Of a DNA stretch of 18,049 bases, positions 755-9,847 are shown piece after piece; the first letter of the stretch is position 1; every line of letters starts with the position of its first letter. A model generated the notes under the pieces. The model had not been told where the DNA came from. It did no database searches and saw nothing but the letters and a program-made list of their open reading frames with translations. Source of the stretch: a virus; UHGV virus genome UHGV-0118719. The stretch is one strand, 5' to 3'. A program made the translations under genes and the position numbers.

Positions 755-793
755 CCGCCGCTCATTCTTGCATACGATGGGCGGCGGATTTTT
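755..793. terminator. rho-independent terminator after the dinI-like gene; also sits at the 3' end of the convergent tail-fibre gene
   Basis: 11-bp stem ccgccgctcat (755-765) / atgggcggcgg (777-787) with one G-U pair and an 11-nt loop, followed by ATTTTTC. Confidence 0.55.
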
Positions 794-1995
794 CAGCTTC
801 CAGGCCGCAACGCATCGAGCTTTTTCTTTAAATCTTCAACTTGCTGCATTAAAGCCAGAATCGCTTCATGATGTAGCGCTGCCGCAACGCCGTAAGTATC
901 TGGAGAGAGCACTCCTTCCACCACAGTTCCATCTGGGAGTTTACGATCACCCCCCTCAGTTACTGCTTGCGGGAAAACGTTCTTAACATCCTGCGCGATA
1001 AATCCTATCCCCCATTGTCCGGTATCTTTTCTCGTCCACGAGCAACCTTTTAGCATTTCCATCTTTTTGAGCGGGTCCTCAATTCTGGTCACCCCATCCT
1101 TCAGGCGGCCATCTGAATTCGGAACCCAAGCGCCAGGTGCTACAGCGTTGCCATTTAATTTAATAAAGCTCCAGTTGGTTCCTGAACTTGCGTTTGCTAC
1201 CTGAATATTCCCTGTTAAAGAACCATCCGCAGCCATTTGGGAGTAAAGGGCGCACACAGCAGCATCCGTTCCGTTGGCCCACCGTAGCAGGGAACGAATT
1301 AAACCGCCGACTGATCCTTCAGTTACCGTTGGTTGCGTATAACTCGTAATACTTCCATTAACTGCACCGCCAGTTTTCTGATCGATAGTATTTAATCTTG
1401 TATCGTTACCTGCAGCCACCGTTCCCGCTGTTGCGCCAATGTCTCTCGTGGCACTGTTTCCCAAACCGAGGCTTGTGCGAGCACCTGATGCGGTTGTTGA
1501 ACCGGTACCGCCCTGTCCAACAGATAGCGCTGTCGTGAGTCCGCTGAGCGAAGTAATATCGCTGTTTGCACCTTTTGCCGCCTTGCCTGAAAGTGATGTA
1601 GTAATGCTATTCCAGGCTGGGCCCGTCCATGTCGTTCCATCCGGCAGTGTTACTGTTACATTGCCGGTTCCAGAAAAAATGCTTTGCCAGTTCTGTTTGT
1701 CGTAATTCAGTCCTCGCAGCGCTTCAGCACTTTGCGCCACCAGCGCGGCAGTTACCATGTTCAGAGCCACACGGGGAACCGCTGACCAGGCAGCGCCGGC
1801 CTGAGTAGGGCCGGTAAAGTTGCTGACCAGCGTAAGCTGCGCATTACTCTCTACAGATTTTACGGGCAATGTATACGACACGCCGCCAACAGTAGAGACA
1901 ATAAAATCACCTGCAGCGAGTTCAGTTGCGAATGAGGTTCCGGAACCGCCAACAATAGCGGACCCGTTTGTCAGGGTGATGGTGCCTGCCGACAT
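793..1995 (-). CDS. tail fibre protein with C-terminal S74-type intramolecular chaperone (autoproteolytic) domain
   Basis: 400-aa ORF; AGGAG RBS (2002-2006, reverse complement) 6 nt before the ATG; N-terminus MSAGTITLTNGSAIVGGSGTSF typical of tail-fibre anchors; Gly/Ser/Thr-rich middle; the last ~107 aa begin SDGRLKDG..., resembling the SDxRLK start of endosialidase / T5 pb1 chaperone domains. Confidence 0.8.
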   Translation of the reverse strand: MSAGTITLTNGSAIVGGSGTSFATELAAGDFIVSTVGGVSYTLPVKSVESNAQLTLVSNFTGPTQAGAAWSAVPRVALNMVTAALVAQSAEALRGLNYDKQNWQSIFSGTGNVTVTLPDGTTWTGPAWNSITTSLSGKAAKGANSDITSLSGLTTALSVGQGGTGSTTASGARTSLGLGNSATRDIGATAGTVAAGNDTRLNTIDQKTGGAVNGSITSYTQPTVTEGSVGGLIRSLLRWANGTDAAVCALYSQMAADGSLTGNIQVANASSGTNWSFIKLNGNAVAPGAWVPNSDGRLKDGVTRIEDPLKKMEMLKGCSWTRKDTGQWGIGFIAQDVKNVFPQAVTEGGDRKLPDGTVVEGVLSPDTYGVAAALHHEAILALMQQVEDLKKKLDALRPGS

Positions 1996-3074: not shown

Positions 3075-3376
3075 TATGCCTTCTCCATAAAAACGATCAG
3101 CTCACATTTCGAGGCCGGATAATTACCAAGCCCAGTGTCAGATGCGGACGTCACAGTTATTGAGTTACCTGATGCAACTATTCTTCGCCCTACGCTGTTA
3201 CCTCCTTCATCAAGAGAAACAACAAAACCAACTTTAAAACCTGTGGGCACAGTGAAACTCCAAGAACCTGAGTTCTGACCTGCTGCAAGTGGAATGCGGC
3301 CTACTACCGATACTGGTTTAATGCCATAGTTATTAGGCCTTCCGCTGGCATCCCATGTTTGTATTCCCCATGACAT
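3074..3376 (-). CDS. hypothetical protein (100 aa), first of two coupled post-J ORFs
   Basis: ATG at 3374-3376 overlaps the J stop by 1 nt (TGATG); AGGAG RBS 8 nt upstream, inside the end of J; WDASG motif. Confidence 0.6.
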   Translation of the reverse strand: MSWGIQTWDASGRPNNYGIKPVSVVGRIPLAAGQNSGSWSFTVPTGFKVGFVVSLDEGGNSVGRRIVASGNSITVTSASDTGLGNYPASKCELIVFMEKA

Positions 3377-6300
3377 CAGAATACTCCTGTCAGTTTTCCA
3401 ATCTGTACGCGCAGGACGCCGTTAGCATCCCTTATGCTGTCAGTAACATTCGTTGTCTTTCTTGCGCCCTGCCCGTCACTGCCATAGTTTTCCCAAGTGC
3501 CACCTTTATCCAGTTTCCATCCAGATTGCCCGGCAACGTAATTGTTGGACTGGATAAAGTTACCGATTTTGGCATTGGTGATCGTGCCATCCTGAATAAA
3601 CGCTGAGCTGATAAACACCTGACCGTTTACCACCGCGAACGGCGAATACTGGGTATCACCACTGCCGCTCATCAGCACGAACTGGTTAGCGTTGAAACCA
3701 ACCCGCGTGACTACCGGCTTCCCTGCCTCTGCAAGCACTGCAATAGACATCCCGGCGTTATAAATCACCCCGTTTATTCTCACGCCCGTTTTGAGGGTGT
3801 GGATTGCCGAAGCACCGGAGGCATCTACGACAGCTGTAAGCTTGTCTTCCAGGGAAGCGGTAACATCCTCAATCTGCGCCTGCACCTGCGTCGAAAGTTC
3901 GGCCATTGCATTATCAACTTCAGCAATCGTCGTTTTAACCACCAGAATATCGGCACGCACTTCTCCGTATTGTGCCCACTGGTGCTCAACAGTTCCATGG
4001 TTCGCCAGGGCGTTCTGCAGTATTCCCTCAATGTTGGTATCGATGTCACCAGTCAGGCGTTCTCCGTCTGCAGAGGTTAGGAAATCATCTGCGATATCGC
4101 CCAAATAATCATCGGCGTTATCGTTAGACATCCCCCTGATCCAGTCGGTATACCCGGACTCGTTACCCGTTCTGTCGACCAGCTGCGCGCGGTACCAGAA
4201 TTCCTGCCCTGCTTTAAGGCCGAGCTGGGTGTATTCCGCAGATGGATAAGGCACGTCTGAGAGCAAGAGTGGATCTGAAAAGTCACTGTTGGCAGTGTAC
4301 TGAATTTCCGTTTTTAGCGTATCGCCGGTGTTTGCCGGGAAACCCCAGTTAAGACGAATCCCCCAGTTAATGCCCGTGGCTGTGAATCCTACTGGCTTAG
4401 GCGGATTACCTACTTTGCCGGTCAGTGTCTTCTCTTCTGAATATCCCCATCCTGAGGAAATTTCAGCGGCATTAATTGCGCGCACGCGCACCAGGTAGCG
4501 CCCGGCATAAATCCCCGGGACGTCAAATGACGTGGTGGAGCTGCGAGGCATGTTCACCCAGTTTCCGTCGTTGCGGCGCCACTGCCCCTCATAGGCGATA
4601 GCGTTCTGCGCCTGGTCCCAGCTCACGCGCATCGTTTCGACGCTGATATTCTGCTGAACAACCGAAAACGAACTGATCGTGATGTTGGCTGGCGGGGACT
4701 GATTACCGGGCGGAATTACACTTATTGGCCGCTGGTCGATGATGGCGCCGGTATCGATACGGGCATACTTATCCGGATCGTGAAAAGCACCAGTAATCGA
4801 AAACGTGCCGTCGTTATTATCAGCGACGCTGATAACACGATATTGCTGTGCATAAAGCTCGTCGGATTCGACAATCCATACCGATTCGACTGCCGGTGTT
4901 TCGCTGTATGCCGTGGTCACGGTGACAGCCCGACCGTTTACGCTCTGTATCGTCCTGCTCTGCGATGCGCCAGACGGCAGGTTAACCATAAGACGGCTTC
5001 CGGCAACGGCTGCGGAATCACGATCAAGCGTGATAACGCGACCATTAACCGCGCTGATACGCCCTCCCATCACCTTTCCGGATAACAGATCATCGGCAAC
5101 CGCGATAATATAACCAGGCTGCGGAATGTTTCCGTCCAGCCCGACATCAAACGAAACAACGCGATCCTTGTTATTGGTGAGAATACCCCAGCGCCCCTTT
5201 CGGTTCGCCTCTGACTGCCTGGTGCAGCCGATGGCTGTCATTTCCAGCTGATTGAAGCCGTACCGCGCCACCAGCGCCTGCTCAAATACCGGCTCCATCG
5301 CGTCGGCATAAGCGTTACCCGGGTCTGACCATGAAACCAGCGCTGTGGTGTAGCGGCTTTTCGTGGTGCTGCTCGAATAGGTGAAGCGACCGCCAACAAC
5401 GTTAGCGCGCGTATAGCTGTAATCAACATCGCGCGGCATGTCAGCCAGGGCCACAATCTGATCCCCGCCCCAGTAGGTCATGCCACGGAAGATAGCGGCA
5501 AAATCACGCAGGACTGTGTAGGCGTCGTTCCGGTCCTGAATGTACACGTTGCAGGTATAGCGTGGTTCTGTACCGTTGCCCCCTTTGCCGTCTGGTACCA
5601 TCTGATCACAATACTGAGCAACCTGATAAAGCGTCCATTTATCAATATTCGCAGCGGTCAAACGGTGCCCAAGGCCGAACCGGTCAGAAACAACCAGGTC
5701 GTAAAAAATCCACGCAGGGTTATCCGTCCATGCCCACTTAAACGCACCGGTCCATGTACCGCTATAAGTGCGGGTTTCAGGGTCGTAGGTATCTGGAACG
5801 CGGATAACGCGGCCGCGCGGTTCGCATGAAATTTGAGGAATAGAGCCGTTGAACTGGCTTGAGTCGAATTCGACGTAGAGCAGCGCGGTGTTCGGGTAGC
5901 GCAGTTTGGCGTCAATCACCTCGGTGAAGCTCTGCAGCATCATCGTGTCGCCGATCTTCGCGCTGTTGGCGTCAGAGGTAATCTTACGCAGACGTATTGT
6001 CCATGTGCTGCCAGCCTGCGGTAAATCGATACGGTGGCTGCGCTCATAACCAGACGTCGTTTTGCCGGTCACGCTGGTATTGAGTACCGTCTGCCATGTG
6101 CCGCCGTCAGTCTGCAGGTCAATCGCATAATTGACCGAGTAACCCACCAGATCGCCGTCGTCTTCCTGTTTGAAAAGCGAGGGCCATTTAAGACGCAGGC
6201 GAACTGCTGAAAGCTGCGTATTGGTAAACGTGCGCGTCCAGGCTGTGGCACTTGATACCTCAGTTCCTACGCTGATCTCGTTTTCGGTACCGGGAATACC

Positions 6301-6561
6301 CTGAATATATTTTTGCGCCTGCGTTCCCGCGCGAAACTCCCACGTTACCCCGCTGAAGTTTTGGGAGCCGTCAGCATTCTCCAGCGCTGTTCCGTCCAGG
6401 TAGATATCTTTGCCGGTGAGCTGTCCAGCAAACTCCCCTTCCCCAAGCGCAACGAGGATTTTTGCCTTCGCTACAGATTGCAGATCATCAGGCTGTTCGG
6501 TAGGGGTTCGGGAACTTGAGCTGCCGCCCTTGCGGCCTTTTAACACTTTATCTGTAGCCAT
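3376..6561 (-). CDS. J: tail tip / central tail fibre protein J (host specificity protein)
   Basis: 1061-aa ORF in the lambda J position after I; conserved lambda-J-like blocks in the central region (e.g. YPNTAL, WTLYQVAQYCDQMVPDGKGG..TEPRYTCNVY); N- and C-terminal regions diverge from lambda. Confidence 0.9.
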   Translation of the reverse strand: MATDKVLKGRKGGSSSSRTPTEQPDDLQSVAKAKILVALGEGEFAGQLTGKDIYLDGTALENADGSQNFSGVTWEFRAGTQAQKYIQGIPGTENEISVGTEVSSATAWTRTFTNTQLSAVRLRLKWPSLFKQEDDGDLVGYSVNYAIDLQTDGGTWQTVLNTSVTGKTTSGYERSHRIDLPQAGSTWTIRLRKITSDANSAKIGDTMMLQSFTEVIDAKLRYPNTALLYVEFDSSQFNGSIPQISCEPRGRVIRVPDTYDPETRTYSGTWTGAFKWAWTDNPAWIFYDLVVSDRFGLGHRLTAANIDKWTLYQVAQYCDQMVPDGKGGNGTEPRYTCNVYIQDRNDAYTVLRDFAAIFRGMTYWGGDQIVALADMPRDVDYSYTRANVVGGRFTYSSSTTKSRYTTALVSWSDPGNAYADAMEPVFEQALVARYGFNQLEMTAIGCTRQSEANRKGRWGILTNNKDRVVSFDVGLDGNIPQPGYIIAVADDLLSGKVMGGRISAVNGRVITLDRDSAAVAGSRLMVNLPSGASQSRTIQSVNGRAVTVTTAYSETPAVESVWIVESDELYAQQYRVISVADNNDGTFSITGAFHDPDKYARIDTGAIIDQRPISVIPPGNQSPPANITISSFSVVQQNISVETMRVSWDQAQNAIAYEGQWRRNDGNWVNMPRSSTTSFDVPGIYAGRYLVRVRAINAAEISSGWGYSEEKTLTGKVGNPPKPVGFTATGINWGIRLNWGFPANTGDTLKTEIQYTANSDFSDPLLLSDVPYPSAEYTQLGLKAGQEFWYRAQLVDRTGNESGYTDWIRGMSNDNADDYLGDIADDFLTSADGERLTGDIDTNIEGILQNALANHGTVEHQWAQYGEVRADILVVKTTIAEVDNAMAELSTQVQAQIEDVTASLEDKLTAVVDASGASAIHTLKTGVRINGVIYNAGMSIAVLAEAGKPVVTRVGFNANQFVLMSGSGDTQYSPFAVVNGQVFISSAFIQDGTITNAKIGNFIQSNNYVAGQSGWKLDKGGTWENYGSDGQGARKTTNVTDSIRDANGVLRVQIGKLTGVF

Positions 6562-6571
6562 ATTGCGCCCA

Positions 6572-6595
6572 TAAAAAAGCCACCCAAAGGTGGCT
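6572..6595 (-). terminator. rho-independent terminator on the minus strand, ending about 10 nt upstream of the J start codon
   Basis: Plus-strand A6 then 7-bp stem agccacc (6578-6584) / ggtggct (6589-6595) with loop caaa; on the minus strand this is a hairpin followed by TTTTTTAT. Confidence 0.55.
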
Positions 6596-6726
6596 ACTGT
6601 CTGAATATCAGGATGTTACAAATCTAAATACCTGGTTATGTTGTGGATTCAGCCCGCCAGCGGTGGGACGCTGGTGAACTCATAACAGGTGGAATGGCTG
6701 ATTACCTCTGGAAAAAGGAGAAGTAA

Positions 6727-6987
6727 ATGGGTTCGATGTTAGAACTGGAAAAAGAAGTGGCAGAGCTTAAACAAAAGCTGCTTACGCATGAAATTGCAAC
6801 TGGCCTGATTCTATCGGACATTGTGAAATTACTGGACATTGCCCGGCCAGGCGCACTCGATGCTCTGACTAAAAACTATCAGGCAGGGCAAGCAAAAATC
6901 CCAGAATCAGCTGCACGTAATGATCCGCACACAATTGATGCGTTCACGCGCATCCTTAAAGTTTTAGAGGTGGCATCAAAGAAATAA
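6727..6987 (+). CDS. hypothetical small protein (86 aa) on the opposite strand to the tail operon; coiled-coil-like N-terminus
   Basis: AGGAG RBS (6716-6720) 6 nt before the ATG at 6727; AT-rich compared with flanking tail genes; 3' end overlaps the convergent minus-strand ORF by 32 bp. Confidence 0.5.
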   Translation: MGSMLELEKEVAELKQKLLTHEIATGLILSDIVKLLDIARPGALDALTKNYQAGQAKIPESAARNDPHTIDAFTRILKVLEVASKK

Positions 6988-7273
6988 TTAAATCGAGCTT
7001 TTCATTGAATATTTCTTCATGAGTTTTAGCGGCCTCATTCTGGGCCGCTGTTACCGTTCCACCGAAAACCCCTGCATCACCCTGCGAAATCTTTCCCTCC
7101 TTTACTCGCAAACTCCAGCCATTACCGGTGATGGTCGAATGAATAGCGCCACCTGGCCGTAGTGCGTTCTGAATGGCGGAATTGACGATTGCCGGGTTAT
7201 GCAGCTCTGCTATCTCCACCTGCAGGCTCGCGATGGTTGCCTCAAGCATGCTCATGCGCTCTTCTAAAGTCAT
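6956..7273 (-). CDS. hypothetical small protein (105 aa from the ATG at 7271-7273) between I and J
   Basis: AGGAG RBS 7 nt upstream of the ATG at 7273; the longer track ORF (to 7375) would overlap I and lacks an RBS; coiled-coil-like N-terminus. Confidence 0.5.
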   Translation of the reverse strand: MTLEERMSMLEATIASLQVEIAELHNPAIVNSAIQNALRPGGAIHSTITGNGWSLRVKEGKISQGDAGVFGGTVTAAQNEAAKTHEEIFNEKLDLIISLMPPLKL

Positions 7274-7310
7274 AGTTTTCTCCTGCCTATCAGCTAATAA
7301 GTTAATTAAT

Positions 7311-7901
7311 TTACTGTTGATCTTCGACATAAATTCCGGCAGAAATAATCGCTCCGCCGATTCGACGCTTACCATAAAGCAGAGGCACCGGGTACCCCTG
7401 TGCCGCGGTGTTTGTTACACCACCGAACGCGTATGAGGCGCGGTTATCTGAACTCTGTTTGCTGGCCAGCCCCGCTGGTTGAGGGGAAAGCATCTGAACA
7501 ACCCCGCCAATCATCATTGCGGCACCGAATTTGTATAAGAATGGTGATGCCGCAGCCCAGGGTGTGAAATTAAGCACCGCCCCAACGGCAACCAGAACTG
7601 CACCAAGTATTGTCTGGAGTAATCCGGCCTTTTTGCTCCCGATAATCACCGGGACAATCCTGACCACTTCACCAGTTACCGGAAAACCTAGGTCATCAAC
7701 TCCTATGTTTTTCTTTCCTTTAAAAATGGCAAAGGTTAGTCCGCGGCGCTTGCTGTTTACCATATAACTTTCAAACCCGGTGATTGTTTTTGCGAGTGCT
7801 ACACCTGCTTCAGAAACTTTACTGATAAGTCGCCAATGAGTTTTACCAAATATTTTACCGGGTTCGCCGCCGAGCTCAATTCGAGTCATTGCTTCAGACA
7901 T
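7311..7901 (-). CDS. I: tail assembly protein I
   Basis: 196-aa ORF; AAGAGG RBS 5 nt upstream; C-terminal half resembles lambda gpI (Gly/Ala-rich hydrophobic segment, then VLPVLYG-like block, here YPVPLLYGKRRIG). Confidence 0.85.
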   Translation of the reverse strand: MSEAMTRIELGGEPGKIFGKTHWRLISKVSEAGVALAKTITGFESYMVNSKRRGLTFAIFKGKKNIGVDDLGFPVTGEVVRIVPVIIGSKKAGLLQTILGAVLVAVGAVLNFTPWAAASPFLYKFGAAMMIGGVVQMLSPQPAGLASKQSSDNRASYAFGGVTNTAAQGYPVPLLYGKRRIGGAIISAGIYVEDQQ

Positions 7902-7914
7902 ATAAACCTCTTAA

Positions 7915-7940
7915 TAATAAAAAACCCCGCCTGAGCGAGG
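7915..7940 (-). terminator. rho-independent terminator between the lipoprotein gene and I
   Basis: Plus-strand A-run 7919-7924 then ccccgc-ctga-gcgagg; on the minus-strand RNA the stem is fully paired (one G-U) and followed by a U-tract, while the plus-strand version has a C-A mismatch. Confidence 0.55.
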
Positions 7941-7959
7941 TTATATATAATTGCTGCAT

Positions 7960-8373
7960 TCAAAATGCTGTAGGGTAGATACCAAAATCACCGTTGGTTC
8001 CGTAACCAACTCTAAACATCAAAACCCCAGTATCTGTCACCTTACCCGACTGTTCGCTCATGCCTCCGCCACACATACCTTTGGGCCAAGCGCTAAAGAT
8101 ATGATCTCCAATTTTGGGATAGACCGTTACCTTTTGAGCTGTATCTAAGTCTGCGACCTCCTTGCCATCAACATAAACTCGGGTCATGCAGGCGCTGCCC
8201 ATAAAACCAGAGTCTCGTTTGATTATTACCTTGCCAGTCCCTTCTTTTTTTACTAGCAGTGTATTGCTGATAACCTGTTTTGCAGGAACATCCTGTGCTT
8301 GTTCATTTGTCACCGGCTTAGTTGCACAACCGGCAACCATTAAGATGGAGGTAAAAACTAAAATTCTTTTCAT
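7960..8373 (-). CDS. lipoprotein of unknown function (137 aa), accessory gene between K and I
   Basis: ATG at 8371-8373 preceded by AAAGGGGA; signal peptide MKRILVFTSILMVAGC with lipobox VAGC; the longer track ORF start at 8493 was rejected. Confidence 0.65.
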   Translation of the reverse strand: MKRILVFTSILMVAGCATKPVTNEQAQDVPAKQVISNTLLVKKEGTGKVIIKRDSGFMGSACMTRVYVDGKEVADLDTAQKVTVYPKIGDHIFSAWPKGMCGGGMSEQSGKVTDTGVLMFRVGYGTNGDFGIYPTAF

Positions 8374-8461
8374 ATCCCTATCCCCTTTGGTCAATTTTGC
8401 CAAAAGAGTAGCAGGGATCGAGCGGTAGCAAAACCGAATGTTATCTTGGTTCACGCGCCCT

Positions 8462-8971
8462 TTAAATACCGGGGAGATACATCTGTACTTCATCAGCTAC
8501 ACGCTCCCGTGCTGTGTGTAGAAGCCGCTTGCGGCCACCAACACCCCACTTGGCCATCTGGCTGGCGCACTGGCTGATCGCTTTGGTTTCGGTGTTAATC
8601 ACATGGTCGATTTTATTCAAGCGAGACATGGCATCGAACCCGCGACGCATTAGCATTTGAAATGTCTCATAGACTTTGATTTCAAAAAGCGGATTGAGCC
8701 AGGCTGCATAGCGTATAGCGATAAGTTCAAGCCCCCAGGAGCCCTGAAATGGTCCCCCCTTAATTGTCATAACCGATGCGATTTTCTTCGCATCGCTCAA
8801 GGCTTGAACAAATCGCCTTACTTGCTTGGTTTTGAGAAACTCACCTGGTCGCTGTGATTCAGTGGCTTTGCCTTCAGCCACCGCTGCGGCGTGGAGATCA
8901 TTAAGATTATAACGTCCTTCGTTATCGACACGAACTGATACGCCGTTTACAGATACGGTTGGATATTGCAT
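8462..8971 (-). CDS. KilA-N domain protein (169 aa)
   Basis: N-terminal ~110 aa fit the KilA-N/APSES-type pattern (V..VR.D.EG...L.DL......, GG.FQGSWG.ELIAIRYAAWLNP.FEIKVYE); ATG at 8969-8971 with AAGG RBS; inserted where lambda has no gene. Confidence 0.65.
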   Translation of the reverse strand: MQYPTVSVNGVSVRVDNEGRYNLNDLHAAAVAEGKATESQRPGEFLKTKQVRRFVQALSDAKKIASVMTIKGGPFQGSWGLELIAIRYAAWLNPLFEIKVYETFQMLMRRGFDAMSRLNKIDHVINTETKAISQCASQMAKWGVGGRKRLLHTARERVADEVQMYLPGI

Positions 8972-9115
8972 ATCGGATTACCTTTTAGTGATGAACCTTG
9001 TCGCACAGGAAAACGGCCCCAAGAAGGCTCCGACAGCCAGCCGGTTCCTCAAGGTGCATCCTGAAAGGTTCTTGGTTTGAATTGCGCGTGCGGTGCGCGG
9101 TGAAATGCGGGGTTT

Positions 9116-9136
9116 AAAAAAACCCACCTGAGTGGG
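9116..9136 (-). terminator. rho-independent terminator directly after the K stop codon
   Basis: cccac-ctga-gtggg hairpin (9123-9136) abutting the K stop (9137-9139), followed on the minus strand by T7 (plus-strand A-run 9116-9122). Confidence 0.55.
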
Positions 9137-9847
9137 CTATAGAAGCGTTTTATATCTGACGATCTTCATCGTCCTTTCCTGCCAGTAGCCACCATACGGC
9201 ACGCGCTGGCTCAGATGTCCGTACAGGTGGTGCAGCAGCATATTTCCCTCCAGCAGAATTCCCGCGTGGTTCCACTTATCAGCCTGGACCTGCATGATCA
9301 CCATATCGCCGGGTTTCGGTGGCCCGTCGAATTCCCGGAAACCGCACTCATACCAGCAATCCTGATAGAAGTTGTCCGGATATTCGTTTTCCCACCAGGG
9401 ATAATCAACCCGGTAATCGTGGAGTTCGATACCATGCGTTTGCCGAAAATAGCTCATTACCAGCCCCCAGCAGTCGAAGTGTCCAAGCACAAACGGACGC
9501 TCCAGCAGCGGCAGTTCTCCGCGCGGCTGGATGGTGCGTAAATCCCCCTCCGGCCAGCTCACAATATGCCAGGGTAAAAGCGTTGCGTCGCATTGCGCTT
9601 TATCCAGTTCGCTCGGTTGCGTTGTGGCGTCAGGGTGACTGTGAACGATGGCGATCACCGTACCCCAGTCCTCAGCAGCGGCATAGCCTTCTGGCGACAG
9701 GTGAAAATGTTCTGTCGGCTCGGTAGCGAGGTTACTACATGGAAAATATTTCTCTACCCGGCTCTTTTGCGCCACCACGCCGCAACACTCACGAGGATAT
9801 TCAGCTGCAGCATGCGCCATAATCGCATCGATGGTTTTCTGACGCAT
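9137..9847 (-). CDS. K: tail assembly protein K (N-terminal MPN/JAMM-like, C-terminal NlpC/P60-like)
   Basis: 236-aa ORF that matches my recollection of lambda gpK over essentially its whole length (MRQ.TIDAIMAHAAAEYPRE.CGVV..., HSHPD motif, HFDCWGLV). Confidence 0.95.
   Translation of the reverse strand: MRQKTIDAIMAHAAAEYPRECCGVVAQKSRVEKYFPCSNLATEPTEHFHLSPEGYAAAEDWGTVIAIVHSHPDATTQPSELDKAQCDATLLPWHIVSWPEGDLRTIQPRGELPLLERPFVLGHFDCWGLVMSYFRQTHGIELHDYRVDYPWWENEYPDNFYQDCWYECGFREFDGPPKPGDMVIMQVQADKWNHAGILLEGNMLLHHLYGHLSQRVPYGGYWQERTMKIVRYKTLL

What the first reader, a model, noticed from the sequence alone, without database searches (positions are those of the whole stretch)
6562..7310. Convergent, 3'-overlapping pair of small ORFs inserted between I and J, one antisense to the late operon
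Lambda has no genes between I and J. Here a minus-strand 105-aa ORF (6956..7273) and a plus-strand 86-aa ORF (6727..6987) each have a canonical AGGAG RBS, and their 3' ends overlap by 32 bp. A plus-strand gene inside the late operon would be transcribed against late transcription, which suits a gene expressed in the lysogen. The region is AT-richer than the flanking tail genes. Both products have coiled-coil-like N-termini followed by an RPG(G/A) motif, which may be chance. Convergent overlap also gives scope for mutual antisense regulation. Either ORF could still be spurious.
Basis: partly seen in the sequence, partly recalled or inferred. Interest (0 to 1): 0.6.

Follow-up and report, generated by a model that had tools for sequence, protein, structure and literature searches.

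The report
Two-gene moron cassette between tail genes
Two real small genes of unknown function lie between prophage tail genes I and J as a known kind of add-on cassette (a "moron plus reverse moron", first seen in phages HK97 and HK022), and the backward-facing gene sits behind a conserved promoter-like, folded RNA leader that precedes at least 21 unrelated small genes in other enterobacterial phages.

Summary
Both ORFs are conserved.

- **Insert.** Compared with phage HK75, whose I and J are adjacent, the window carries about 706 bp extra (6595-7300).
- **Known arrangement.** HK97 (genes 22/23, annotated "moron" and "reverse moron"), HK022 (22/srb), mEp506 and ES18 (24/25) have the same layout. 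Their proteins are unrelated to these.
- **Reverse gene.** The plus-strand 86-aa gene is under strong purifying selection (dN/dS 0.04-0.06). AlphaFold2 predicts three helices. It has no known fold or function.
- **Forward gene.** The minus-strand 105-aa gene is a fast-evolving mosaic with a conserved N-terminus (MTLExR..LE). Its C-terminal tail tracks the type of reverse gene it overlaps.
- **Mobility.** The pair moves as a unit between different tail-gene junctions.
- **New lead.** About 130 nt upstream of the reverse gene is conserved across unrelated cargo genes. It holds an invariant TAnnnT -10-like element and two hairpins with compensatory changes. It matches no Rfam family.

The most likely logic is that the reverse gene is expressed in the lysogen and shut off by late antisense transcription, while the forward gene is expressed late. 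This resembles the Tai/Ati and Tha/Ith immunity and counter-immunity pairs, but there is no sequence homology to Tai/Ati and expression and function are untested.

The parts
6570..6595 (-). Intrinsic terminator on the late strand (stem 6578-6595, then a T-run), just upstream of the J start codon. It marks the J-side end of the cassette.
   Evidence: Terminator scan. The same hairpin is annotated as a putative terminator in HK97, HK75 and ES18. It is conserved in most cassettes at other junctions. HK75, which lacks the cassette, keeps it.
6596..6648 (+). Promoter-like part of the conserved leader: AATATCAGG...CCTGG inverted repeat, -35-like GTTACA (6615-6620), 16-nt spacer and -10-like TATGTT (6637-6642).
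   Evidence: T-A-n-n-n-T is invariant or at least 90% conserved in 42 and in 24 diverse leaders. It scores 8 of 12 against the sigma-70 consensus, below the scan's threshold, so one search found no promoter. The transcription start is inferred to lie near 6649-6651 and has not been shown.
6649..6726 (+). Structured 5' leader of the reverse gene: P2 hairpin (6655-6662 with 6669-6676, loop GUGGGA), P3 hairpin (6686-6692 with 6705-6710), invariant UCAGCC (6649-6654) and GGCUGA (6696-6701) that could pair, and SD AGGAG (6716-6720). It also holds a short upstream ORF (6694..6726, MADYLWKKEK) whose stop abuts the main ATG.
   Evidence: Alignments and RNAalifold. Pair counts: P2 is 97-99% paired, with 4 of 8 pairs showing compensatory change in the set retrieved without using P2. 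P3 has 3 of 6 such pairs. The whole structure is 92% paired against 27-45% in the slid controls. G-U cells outnumber A-C cells 31:10 and 104:12, which favours the plus-strand RNA. No Rfam match.
6727..6987 (+). Reverse moron gene, 86 aa, antisense to the late operon. Predicted three-helix protein of family phrog_23209, function unknown.
   Evidence: 13 homologs at 43-100% identity. dN/dS 0.04-0.06, with pS saturated while pN is 0.13-0.36. AF2 pLDDT 86 with helices 2-39, 43-57 and 67-85. PHROG hit at 5.5e-59. No Pfam, PADLOC, PDB or BFVD match.
6956..6987 (.). 32-nt dual-coding overlap of the two 3' ends.
   Evidence: Coordinates. The same 32-nt overlap is seen in L005, L011, L013 and L015. Other subtypes have 35, 41 or 53 nt.
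7028..7049 (+). GC-rich hairpin (AGCGGCC / GGCCGCU) 40 nt downstream of the reverse gene's stop and inside the forward ORF. It is a candidate 3'-end or terminator hairpin of the reverse transcript, and it encodes the recurrent AAQxxAA motif of the forward proteins.
   Evidence: RNA fold with z = -2.2. GCGGCC...GGCCGC is conserved in win, L093, L013 and L005. The AAQxxAA motif occurs across forward ORF types. No U-run follows, so terminator function is uncertain. HK97 has a putative terminator annotated at the equivalent place.
6956..7273 (-). Forward moron gene, 105 aa, on the late strand. It has a conserved N-terminal helix (MTLEERMSMLE...), a mosaic middle and a C-terminal tail (..EEIFNEKLDLIISLMPPLKL) specific to this reverse-gene family. 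Family phrog_22477.
   Evidence: PHROG hit at 2.5e-73. 29 distinct open ORFs share the start. Within the first four codons (ATG ACT TTA GAA) every change is synonymous and third-position. Codons 5-11 carry both synonymous changes (GAA/GAG, CGA/CGC/CGT, GTT/GTG, GCG/GCT, CTG/CTT/TTG) and replacements, including the window's own ATG AGC ATG for GTT GAA GCG. Synonymous changes also occur in the non-overlapping tail. dN/dS is 0.36-0.84 and the closest relative differs by 5 non-synonymous and 0 synonymous changes. AF2 pLDDT is 56, and only helix 3-24 is confident. Only 7 hits among 1.8 billion representatives.
7274..7300 (-). Conserved I-side end of the cassette: GCTGATAGGCAGGAGAAAACT, containing the SD. 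No conserved promoter lies upstream.
   Evidence: Only about 20 nt upstream of the ATG is shared (consensus GCCGAAAGGCAGGAGAnnnTT). Beyond that comes either the stop codon of the upstream late gene or another moron's terminator. Homology with HK75 resumes at 7301.

Best explanation
Window 6595-7300 is a mobile accessory cassette of about 700 bp, of the "moron plus reverse moron" type, inserted between tail genes I and J of a lambdoid prophage. It carries two real protein genes.

**Shown.**
- It is an insertion relative to phages with adjacent I and J.
- Its J-side end is homologous to the HK97, HK022, mEp506 and ES18 cassettes: the late-strand terminator plus a leader of about 130 nt. Its I-side end (SD and MTLE start) is shared with the metagenomic and viral-contig cassettes. 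Alignment to HK97 resumes only at 7279, upstream of the start codon.
- The interior genes differ between cassettes.
- The same unit sits at other tail-gene junctions in other phages.

**Inferred.**
- The plus-strand 86-aa gene is transcribed from its own weak sigma-70-type promoter (conserved TAnnnT) through a structured 5' UTR. It would therefore be made in the lysogen, independently of late transcription.
- The minus-strand 105-aa gene has no promoter of its own and would be made only when Q-antiterminated late transcription reads through from I.
- That same late transcript is antisense to the whole reverse gene and should silence it during lytic growth.
- The late-strand terminator before J stops any non-antiterminated transcription in the lysogen.

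**Most likely function (speculative).** The reverse protein is a prophage-expressed factor that acts against other phages or protects the lysogen. The late forward protein, whose C-terminal tail co-varies with the reverse gene, counteracts it during the prophage's own lytic cycle. This is the logic of Tai/Ati in phi80 and Tha/Ith in S. aureus phages.
For: **Insertion and homology of the ends.**

**Mobility as a unit.** The cassette lies at I-J, TMP-M, TMP-distal tail, M-L and T-TMP.

**Both genes are real.**
- Selection.
- Open frames and synonymous changes.
- PHROG membership.
- Shuffles.

**Leader.**
- Conserved TAnnnT.
- Covarying hairpins.
- Wobble asymmetry pointing to the plus-strand RNA.

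**Forward gene lacks its own promoter.**

**Late-strand terminator.**

**Forward C-terminal tail tracks the reverse-gene type while middle modules shuffle.**

**Precedents.** A reverse-oriented immunity gene inside a Q-dependent or lysogeny operon with an adjacent counter-defence gene is described in PMC11364771 and PMC11087260. The moron concept and the HK97 gp15 exclusion protein are described in PMC3594210.
Against: - No expression data of any kind.
- The consensus promoter scan finds nothing. The -35 element is poor or mis-spaced in many leaders.
- The hairpin after the reverse gene lacks a U-run.
- The reverse protein has no match in PADLOC, Pfam, PDB or BFVD. A defence role therefore rests only on context and on cargo diversity.
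- No sequence similarity to TaiEcA or AtiEcA, and the geometry differs: convergent 3' overlap here, divergent 5' overlap in phi80.
- The forward gene's dN/dS is high, its model is poor and it has few relatives. Physical linkage by overlap would make its tail track the reverse gene without any functional link.
- The covariation evidence comes from related sequences. Part of the first set was selected with a pattern that includes P2.
Confidence: 0.6

Rival explanations
1. Only the reverse gene and its leader are functional. The forward ORF is a tolerated read-through frame. It would be kept open by nucleic-acid constraints: a shared SD and start that serves as a recombination flank, the GC hairpin that reads as AAQxxAA, and the antisense of the reverse gene's 3' end.
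For: - dN/dS is 0.36-0.84. The closest relatives differ by 5 non-synonymous and 0 synonymous changes.
- AF2 pLDDT is 56, with the middle unstructured.
- Only 4-7 homologs in very large databases.
- The AAQxxAA motif coincides with the hairpin.
- The overlap length is not conserved across cassettes.
Against: - 29 distinct sequences keep an open frame of 53-123 codons from the same strong SD and ATG.
- The first four codons change only synonymously, and codons 5-11 also carry many synonymous changes alongside replacements.
- Synonymous changes at conserved Leu, Glu, Lys and Phe codons occur in the non-overlapping tail, even between cassettes whose reverse proteins are only about 50% identical.
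- Whole protein modules recur between cassettes, for example the FKVEFPEKNG...NQRAKEHA module.
Confidence: 0.15
2. The forward protein is a structural or assembly accessory of the tail tip, for example a small trimeric fibre-like protein made with I and J. The reverse gene would be an unrelated lysogenic-conversion gene that happens to travel with it.
For: - It always lies inside tail-gene clusters and on the late strand.
- It has an N-terminal helix of the kind seen in trimeric fibre proteins.
- Relatives carry a segment resembling the J Phage_Tail_Tip domain. P0020 scores 22.3 bits against a cutoff of 22. L107 scores 17.5 bits. hhalign against the window's own J C-terminus gives E 0.0038, at only 8.7% probability.
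Against: - The similarity to J is weak. The window's own protein gives no significant BLASTP match to J (E 1.8).
- Many related phages make tails without it (HK75 and others).
- The leader-cargo unit also occurs outside tail operons (HK633 right end).
- The middle modules are swapped freely.
Confidence: 0.12
3. The conserved 130-nt element works on the minus strand, as the 3' end of the forward or late transcript or as a 3'-UTR-derived small RNA ending at the terminator before J. It would not be a 5' leader of the reverse gene.
For: On the minus strand the element ends in a canonical hairpin plus U-run, preceded by an A/U-rich stretch. This layout is typical of Hfq-dependent sRNAs. Stems are equally possible on either strand when the pairs are Watson-Crick. 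Convergent sRNA pairs at moron sites are known in EHEC prophages (PMC4104026).
Against: - Non-Watson-Crick cells in the stems are mostly G-U on the plus strand, which would be A-C mismatches on the minus strand: 31 against 10 and 104 against 12.
- The 24:41 pair of P2 is U-G, U-A or C-G.
- In a scan that allowed all four combinations, P2 pair 109:118 of A3 (28:37 of A4) was T-A in 63, C-G in 13, T-G in 9 and C-A in none.
- The element always sits at a fixed distance upstream of an SD and ATG on the plus strand, whatever the cargo.
- No Rfam family matches, including the EHEC anti-sRNAs.
Confidence: 0.08
4. The pair is a toxin-antitoxin or abortive-infection module in which the two proteins, or an RNA and a protein, neutralise each other in the lysogen.
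For: - Two small adjacent genes with overlapping convergent transcripts.
- The forward tail co-varies with the reverse gene.
Against: - No TA or defence profile matches either protein.
- The genes are convergent rather than co-transcribed.
- The forward gene has no promoter of its own, so the two are unlikely to be co-expressed in the lysogen.
- The forward middle modules recombine independently of the reverse gene.
Confidence: 0.05

Closest known systems
HK97 genes 22 (moron) and 23 (reverse moron); HK022 gene 22 and srb (gp23); mEp506 hypothetical plus DUF2594 protein; ES18 gp24 and gp25 ("possible moron")
   Same: - The site is the same in HK97, HK022 and mEp506 (between I and J). ES18 has the same cassette between M and L.
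- The layout is the same: a late-strand small ORF, then a convergent antisense small ORF.
- The reverse gene's ATG lies at the identical offset, 166 nt from the J start.
- The 5' leader and the late-strand terminator are homologous, at about 84-90% identity over the J start plus leader (window 6400-6720).

   Different: - The proteins are unrelated by BLASTP and fall in different PHROGs.
- The window's reverse protein is not DUF2594.
- None of these genes has a tested function to my knowledge. I could not read Juhala et al. 2000 in the library.
phi80 TaiEcA/AtiEcA (tail assembly inhibition and its counter-defence), a "noncontiguous operon" (PMC11364771)
   Same: - An antisense gene with its own promoter interrupts the Q-dependent late operon of a lambdoid phage.
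- An adjacent small late-strand gene accompanies it.
- In the published model the antisense gene is on in the lysogen, and the late gene and antisense transcription switch it off after induction.
- Tai targets the C-terminus of J. Here the cassette abuts J, and forward-ORF relatives carry a weak J-like segment.
   Different: - No sequence similarity: TaiEcA is 204 aa and AtiEcA 76 aa, and the best BLASTP E-value is above 0.7.
- phi80 lacks the leader.
- The phi80 pair is divergent with a 5' overlap and lies between lysis genes and cos, whereas this pair is convergent and lies between tail genes.
- Anti-phage activity is untested here.
S. aureus prophage Tha/Ith (PMC11087260)
   Same: - A small overlapping antisense gene neutralises a prophage-expressed immunity protein.
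- Reciprocal expression is enforced by antisense transcription.
   Different: - Gram-positive phages.
- Located in the lysogeny module, not the late operon.
- Tha is a HEPN protein.
- No homology was tested or is expected.
HK97 gp15 moron (superinfection exclusion) and lambda lom/bor, Cor
   Same: These are accessory genes inserted in or after the tail operon of lambdoid phages and expressed from the prophage (PMC3594210).
   Different: Those are single genes on the late strand that encode membrane or lipoprotein products. Neither protein here has a predicted membrane segment or signal peptide, judged by reading the sequence and from the AF2 helices.

Membership tests
Moron / reverse-moron cassette of lambdoid phages (HK97/HK022 type) | Extra DNA between two late genes that are adjacent in related phages | tested here: met
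   Homology with HK75 stops at 6594 and resumes at 7301. In HK75, I and J are about 50 nt apart. More than 20 phage records have I next to J.
Moron / reverse-moron cassette of lambdoid phages (HK97/HK022 type) | Base composition differs from the neighbouring genes | tested here: met
   GC 0.466 against 0.54 in J and 0.523 for the window. The difference from I (0.491) is small.
Moron / reverse-moron cassette of lambdoid phages (HK97/HK022 type) | Own terminator | tested here: met
   Late-strand hairpin plus T-run at 6570-6595, homologous to the annotated HK97, HK75 and ES18 terminators. For the reverse gene there is only a hairpin without a U-run.
Moron / reverse-moron cassette of lambdoid phages (HK97/HK022 type) | Own promoter | tested here: inconclusive
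   The consensus scan finds none. A TAnnnT element at 6637-6642 is invariant across 42 and 24 diverse leaders. The -35 element is weak. The forward gene has no conserved upstream region beyond the SD.
Moron / reverse-moron cassette of lambdoid phages (HK97/HK022 type) | Expression from the repressed prophage | not testable with these tools
   No transcript data for this element were found.
Moron / reverse-moron cassette of lambdoid phages (HK97/HK022 type) | Homology of the cassette's flanks and leader to the HK97 and HK022 cassettes | tested here: met
   Window 6400-6720 aligns to HK97 at 84% and to HK022 at 88%, up to the reverse gene's start.
HK97 gp22 / gp23, HK022 gp22 / Srb protein families | Protein sequence similarity | tested here: not met
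   No BLASTP hit better than E 0.05 over 20 residues. The PHROGs differ.
PHROG phrog_23209 (reverse) and phrog_22477 (forward) | Full-length profile match | tested here: met
   E 5.5e-59 over 1-86 of 86. E 2.5e-73 over profile positions 54-158 of 158; the profile's first 53 positions correspond to over-extended starts. Both families have unknown function.
Tai/Ati (phi80) immunity and counter-immunity pair | Antisense gene interrupting the Q-dependent late operon, with an adjacent late-strand small gene | tested here: met
   Gene order and strands, compared with phi80.
Tai/Ati (phi80) immunity and counter-immunity pair | Sequence homology to TaiEcA or AtiEcA | tested here: not met
   BLASTP of Tai and Ati against the window proteins and 93 cargo proteins gives a best E of 0.77.
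Tai/Ati (phi80) immunity and counter-immunity pair | Blocks tail assembly of other phages, and the counter-defence protein binds the immunity protein | not testable with these tools
   Needs plaque assays, electron microscopy and two-hybrid assays.
Known anti-phage defence systems (PADLOC-DB 2.0) | Profile match of either protein | tested here: not met
   No hit at E of 0.01 or better for either protein or for four other cargo proteins.
Type II toxin-antitoxin modules | Toxin or antitoxin domain, and a co-directional bicistronic operon | tested here: not met
   No Pfam hit above threshold. The genes are convergent.
Any Rfam 15 RNA family (for the leader) | Covariance-model match | tested here: not met
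   No match at E of 1 or better in 6300-7500. None at gathering score in the window or in six related loci.
Pfam DUF2594 (the family of the HK022 Srb-like and mEp506 cargo) | Pfam profile match | tested here: not met
   The Pfam scan of the 86-aa protein gives only a sub-threshold RskA_N hit.

The most novel reading that the evidence does not exclude
The leader of about 130 nt would be an undescribed, self-contained expression module: a weak promoter plus a structured 5' UTR with two covarying hairpins and an invariant UCAGCC/GGCUGA pair. Enterobacterial temperate phages would use it to plug in interchangeable small genes, at least 21 families so far, antisense within late operons. In this family the late-strand partner protein would be a dedicated counter-factor. 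It combines a shared N-terminal helix, in some members a J-like decoy segment, and a tail specific for the cognate reverse protein. On this reading the cassette is a portable, sequence-novel immunity and anti-immunity unit of the Tai/Ati kind, aimed at tail-tip assembly.
Probability: 0.15. Interest if true: 0.8.

Novelty: new member of a known kind. Interest (0 to 1): 0.5.

Why it matters
Morons are the main route by which temperate phages carry host-altering, exclusion and defence genes. How their expression is wired into the phage life cycle has only recently been worked out, and only for a few systems (Tai/Ati, Tha/Ith, BstA).

This locus adds two uncharacterised gene families to the classic I-J moron site. 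It also points to something reusable. A conserved promoter-and-leader module and conserved cassette ends flank many unrelated small genes and move between tail-gene junctions and other late-operon sites.

If the leader is a real regulatory RNA, it would give a handle for finding prophage-expressed accessory genes by sequence alone in Enterobacteriaceae. It would also give a defined element to test for how such genes are kept on in lysogens and off during lytic growth.

If the leader is only a promoter plus a stabilising hairpin, the finding is an ordinary, already-known type of moron with new cargo.

Tried and rejected
**Spurious ORFs.** Rejected on conservation, selection and shuffles.

**Homology of the two window proteins to each other or to HK97/HK022 cargo.** None found.

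**Function by profile or fold.**
- Pfam gave only sub-threshold noise: ZapB, YbaB, TraT, RskA_N.
- PADLOC gave nothing.
- Foldseek against PDB and BFVD gave nothing at E of 0.001 or better.
- The afdb50 library was unavailable.
- A PDB sequence profile search gave nothing.

**The 210-aa cargo family as phi80 Tai.** It is not. It matches only hypothetical proteins of Stx phages, and phi80 Tai/Ati match nothing here.

**Sigma-70 consensus promoter scan.** No hits.

**CsrA-type GGA loop idea for P2.** Dropped, because the CCCAUG-class P2 hairpins have unrelated loops (UGUCCG, CCGACA).

**SD sequestration by CCUCU.** The window's minimum-energy fold pairs CUCU with GGAG. However, the SD in most leaders is AAGGAA, which is not complementary, so this is not general.

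**Upstream ORF (MADYL...) as a conserved leader peptide.** Rejected. Its length, stop and frame vary and all three codon positions are conserved, which indicates a nucleotide-level constraint.

**P1 (UCAGG/CCUGG) as an RNA helix.** It shows no covariation and probably lies upstream of the transcription start.

**Literature.** No paper in the library describes the leader, HK97 gp22/23, srb or mEp506. Juhala et al. 2000 and the ES18 genome paper were not readable.
Full report
**1. What is there**

The window is the tail half of a lambdoid prophage late operon, read on the minus strand.
- J is 3376..6561. Pfam finds FNIII-A_GpJ, Phage-tail_3 and Phage_Tail_Tip.
- I is 7311..7901. Its homologs are annotated as tail assembly protein or lambda I-like.

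- The plus-strand ORF is 6727..6987 (86 aa).
- The minus-strand ORF is 6956..7273 (105 aa).
- Each has AGGAG 6 nt before its ATG, and the two overlap by 32 nt at their 3' ends.
- GC is 0.466 in the region, 0.54 in J, 0.491 in I and 0.523 for the window.
- In 2000 shuffles of the region, two ORFs of these sizes occur together 0.1% of the time.

**2. It is an insertion of a known kind**

Megablast against cultured phages matches only the I and J flanks, plus a stretch next to J.
- In HK75, mEp234 and many other phages, I and J are about 50 nt apart and separated only by a terminator hairpin.
- Relative to HK75 the window has 706 extra bases, 6595..7300.
- HK97, HK022 and mEp506 carry an insert at the same place with the same layout.
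- GenBank annotates HK97 gene 22 as "moron product" and gene 23 as "reverse moron product", with putative terminators. HK022 has gene 22 and srb.
- ES18 has the same pair, gp24 and gp25 ("possible moron"), between M and L.
- The proteins in these phages are unrelated to the window's by BLASTP and by PHROG family.

The arrangement has therefore been known since the HK97 and HK022 genomes. The cargo here is different.

**3. Both ORFs are genes**

*Reverse (plus-strand) protein.*
- It has 13 relatives at 43-100% identity in 5.8 billion clusters.
- It belongs to phrog_23209, a family of unknown function.
- Codon comparisons outside the overlap give dN/dS of 0.04 (L093) and 0.06 (L013). More distant pairs have saturated synonymous sites with pN of 0.13-0.36.
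- AlphaFold2 gives a confident three-helix model (pLDDT 86; helices 2-39, 43-57, 67-85).
- Foldseek finds nothing significant in PDB or BFVD. Pfam and PADLOC find nothing.

*Forward (minus-strand) protein.*
- It belongs to phrog_22477 but has few relatives: 4 by word search and 7 among 1.8 billion representatives.
- The true start is ATG 7273. PGAP's 7330 and the mechanical 7375 are not supported. In 29 distinct relatives, conservation begins about 20 nt upstream (GCCGAAAGGCAGGAGAnnnTT) and continues through MTLE(Q/E/R)R.EALE.
- Within the first four codons every change is synonymous. Codons 5-11 mix synonymous changes with replacements, including the window's own Met-Ser-Met for Val-Glu-Ala.
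- The middle is a mosaic of interchangeable modules.
- dN/dS is 0.36-0.84, and the closest relative differs by 5 non-synonymous and 0 synonymous changes.
- The AF2 model is poor apart from helix 3-24.
- The C-terminal tail (..EEIFNEKLDLIISLMPPLKL) is conserved wherever this reverse-gene family is the partner. It shows synonymous changes at conserved Leu, Glu, Lys and Phe codons in the part that does not overlap the reverse gene.

I conclude that the forward ORF is translated and fast-evolving. The rival view, that it is a tolerated frame, keeps about 15%.

**4. The pair travels as a unit**

Contigs encoding relatives of either protein always carry the convergent partner. They do so at different junctions of different siphovirus tail clusters:
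- I-J (L005 Leclercia, L007, L009);
- tape measure-M (L006, L012);
- tape measure-distal tail (L010, L011 Citrobacter);
- M-L, next to Rap1a-domain genes (L013, L014);
- T-tape measure (L015).

In every case the reverse gene's ATG lies about 165 nt from the start of the next late gene.

**5. The conserved leader**

This 165-nt stretch is conserved in all of these loci, and also in HK97, HK022 and mEp506, whose cargo is unrelated.
A second scan with an upstream anchor hit the same cap. It was a mixture: of 92 newly fetched sites, 32 were leader-like and 60 were chance matches to the 15-nt pattern.
- Across 155 loci the ORF behind the leader gives 93 distinct proteins in 21 BLASTP families. They are mostly 65-100 aa, and include DUF1883, an aspartyl-protease-like protein and the HK97 gp23 and Srb families.
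- The leader occurs in 54 of 5426 complete E. coli genomes and in 27 cultured-phage records. No RNA or regulatory feature is annotated on it anywhere; the few annotated features under the match are hypothetical-protein CDS.
- In the genome collection it occurs in Citrobacter, Enterobacter, Kluyvera, Atlantibacter, Phytobacter and Dryocola.
- In HK633 it sits outside the tail operon, in the late-operon stretch between Rz and the right genome end.

Anatomy in window coordinates:
- late-strand terminator, 6570-6595;
- a T-A-n-n-n-T element at 6637-6642, invariant or nearly so in 42 and in 24 diverse leaders, preceded by a weak -35-like GTTACA;
- hairpin P2, 6655-6662 with 6669-6676;
- hairpin P3, 6686-6692 with 6705-6710;
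- two invariant complementary hexamers, UCAGCC (6649-6654) and GGCUGA (6696-6701), which RNAalifold pairs;
- the SD.

Pair counts on the set retrieved independently of P2:
- 92% of cells are paired, against 27-45% when the partners are slid.
- 7 pairs show double-sided changes (2 of 500 shuffles reach this).
- P2 is 97% paired, with 4 of 8 pairs compensatory. Examples are CAGUG/CACUG against CCAUG/CAUGG, and U-G, U-A and C-G at a single pair.
- P3 has 3 of 6 compensatory pairs.

Non-Watson-Crick cells are mostly G-U on the plus strand, which would be A-C mismatches on the minus strand: 31:10 and 104:12. One P2 pair was never C-A in 85 contexts. The structure therefore belongs to the plus-strand RNA, the 5' UTR of the reverse gene.

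No Rfam family matches.

Caveats:
- The sequences are related.
- The hexamer pairing shows no covariation.
- The consensus promoter scan finds nothing.
- The window's own leader folds only modestly better than shuffles (z = -1.7).

**6. How it most likely works**

*Shown.* The cassette's boundaries, its conserved ends, its mobility, two genes under selection, a late-strand terminator and a conserved structured leader.

*Inferred.*
- The reverse gene has its own promoter and is expressed in the lysogen.
- The forward gene has no conserved promoter. In several loci it sits within 20 nt of a preceding terminator. It would therefore be made only by antiterminated late transcription.
- That late transcript is antisense to the entire reverse gene and should switch it off.
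- The terminator before J protects J from non-antiterminated transcription.

This is the "noncontiguous operon" logic shown experimentally in two systems. In phi80, taiEcA lies antisense in the Q operon with atiEcA beside it, and Tai targets the C-terminus of J (PMC11364771). In S. aureus the system is Tha/Ith (PMC11087260).

By analogy, and given the hypervariable cargo, I think a prophage-expressed anti-phage or exclusion factor with a late-expressed counter-factor is the most likely function. Nothing tests it here:
- There is no similarity to Tai or Ati, and phi80 lacks the leader.
- The geometry differs: convergent here, divergent in phi80.
- No defence profile matches.

One weak lead is that forward-ORF relatives carry a segment like part of the J tail-tip domain. 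P0020 scores 22.3 bits, L107 scores 17.5 bits, and hhalign against the window's J gives E 0.0038 at 8.7% probability. This would fit a decoy, but it is far from established, and BLASTP of the window protein against J is not significant.

**7. The overlap**

The 32-nt overlap is real and dual-coding. It is the same length in L005, L011, L013 and L015.

Across cassettes with a genuine cassette-type forward ORF, the two 3' ends range from about 37 nt apart to 54 nt overlapping. More negative values in that table come from loci where the nearest convergent ORF is a neighbouring gene such as M, I or the 396-aa protein.

A GC hairpin at 7028-7049 lies inside the forward ORF, where it reads as the recurrent AAQxxAA motif. 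It may mark the 3' end of the reverse transcript.

The overlap looks like a consequence of packing two convergent genes tightly, not a conserved regulatory device. The antisense relationship that matters is probably the read-through late transcript covering the whole reverse gene.

**8. Verdict**

The cassette is a new member, with new cargo, of a kind of element known since 2000.

The conserved leader and the cassette's modular, mobile nature are the parts worth following up. I found no description of them in Rfam, in genome annotation or in the searchable literature. I could not read the original HK97/HK022 or ES18 genome papers, so I do not claim that they are new.

Noticed in passing
window 7902-9136 (minus strand): Two more accessory genes lie between K and I. 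One is a 137-aa ORF (7960..8373) with a lipoprotein-type signal (MKRILVFTSILMVAGC...). The other is a KilA-N domain protein (8462..8971). By eye, GC-rich hairpins with A/T runs lie at about 7921-7942 and 9118-9140 (the terminator scan did not cover them). HK97 and HK022 also have a moron (gp20) at the K-I junction.
   Followed up: partly
window 6694-6726 (plus strand): A 10-codon upstream ORF (ATGGCTGATTACCTC..., MADYLWKKEK) has its TAA abutting the ATG of the 86-aa gene. In other leaders the same nucleotides are conserved, but the stop position and frame vary. In some leaders the upstream ORF fuses in frame with the cargo (MADYLW...), which has misled ORF callers.
   Followed up: partly
window 7273-7375: RefSeq (PGAP) annotates the forward gene as 124 aa from ATG 7330, overlapping the end of I. 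The phrog_22477 profile is 158 positions long for the same reason. Comparative data support the 105-aa start at 7273.
   Followed up: yes
L248 (phage HK633, record positions 39862-40236): The same leader drives an 81-aa hypothetical gene (HK633_067), antisense, in the late-operon stretch between Rz and the right genome end. This is broadly the late-operon position where phi80 carries tai/ati. The leader-cargo unit is therefore not confined to tail junctions.
   Followed up: partly
L019, L020, L023, L046, L082 and others (IMG/VR contigs): In several contigs the leader-cargo unit is convergent with a conserved protein of about 396 aa (MDAGCEH.FLWDDDAWPIADNW...) instead of the small MTLE-type ORF. 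That protein has no Pfam match.
   Followed up: partly
L013 and L014, 3566-4325: Two Rap1a-domain genes (Rap1a is a type VI secretion immunity protein family) lie on the antisense strand next to the cassette, between tail genes M and L.
   Followed up: no
L233, L242, L247 (Enterobacter bugandensis CAXYPO010000002.1): One 4.7-Mb contig carries three separate leader copies, each with a different cargo gene. A genome can therefore hold several such cassettes.
   Followed up: partly
window 3376-6561 compared with L004 5545-9000: E. coli genomes with a 100% identical cassette have a J protein of 1151 aa, against 1061 aa in the window. The mosaic breakpoint lies inside J, downstream of the cassette. 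The cassette itself is rare in E. coli (3 of 5426 genomes).
   Followed up: no
L001 2972-3001, L002 2780-2809, L003 2774-2803: The terminator hairpin sequence at the cassette's J-side end (AAAAAGCCACC..GGTGGC) recurs at 87% identity at the K-I junction moron of HK97, HK022 and mEp506. It may serve as a shared boundary or recombination point for morons.
   Followed up: no
window 793-1995 (minus strand): A 400-aa ORF with a C-terminal Peptidase_S74 (intramolecular chaperone) domain, probably a side tail fibre, lies downstream of J.
   Followed up: no
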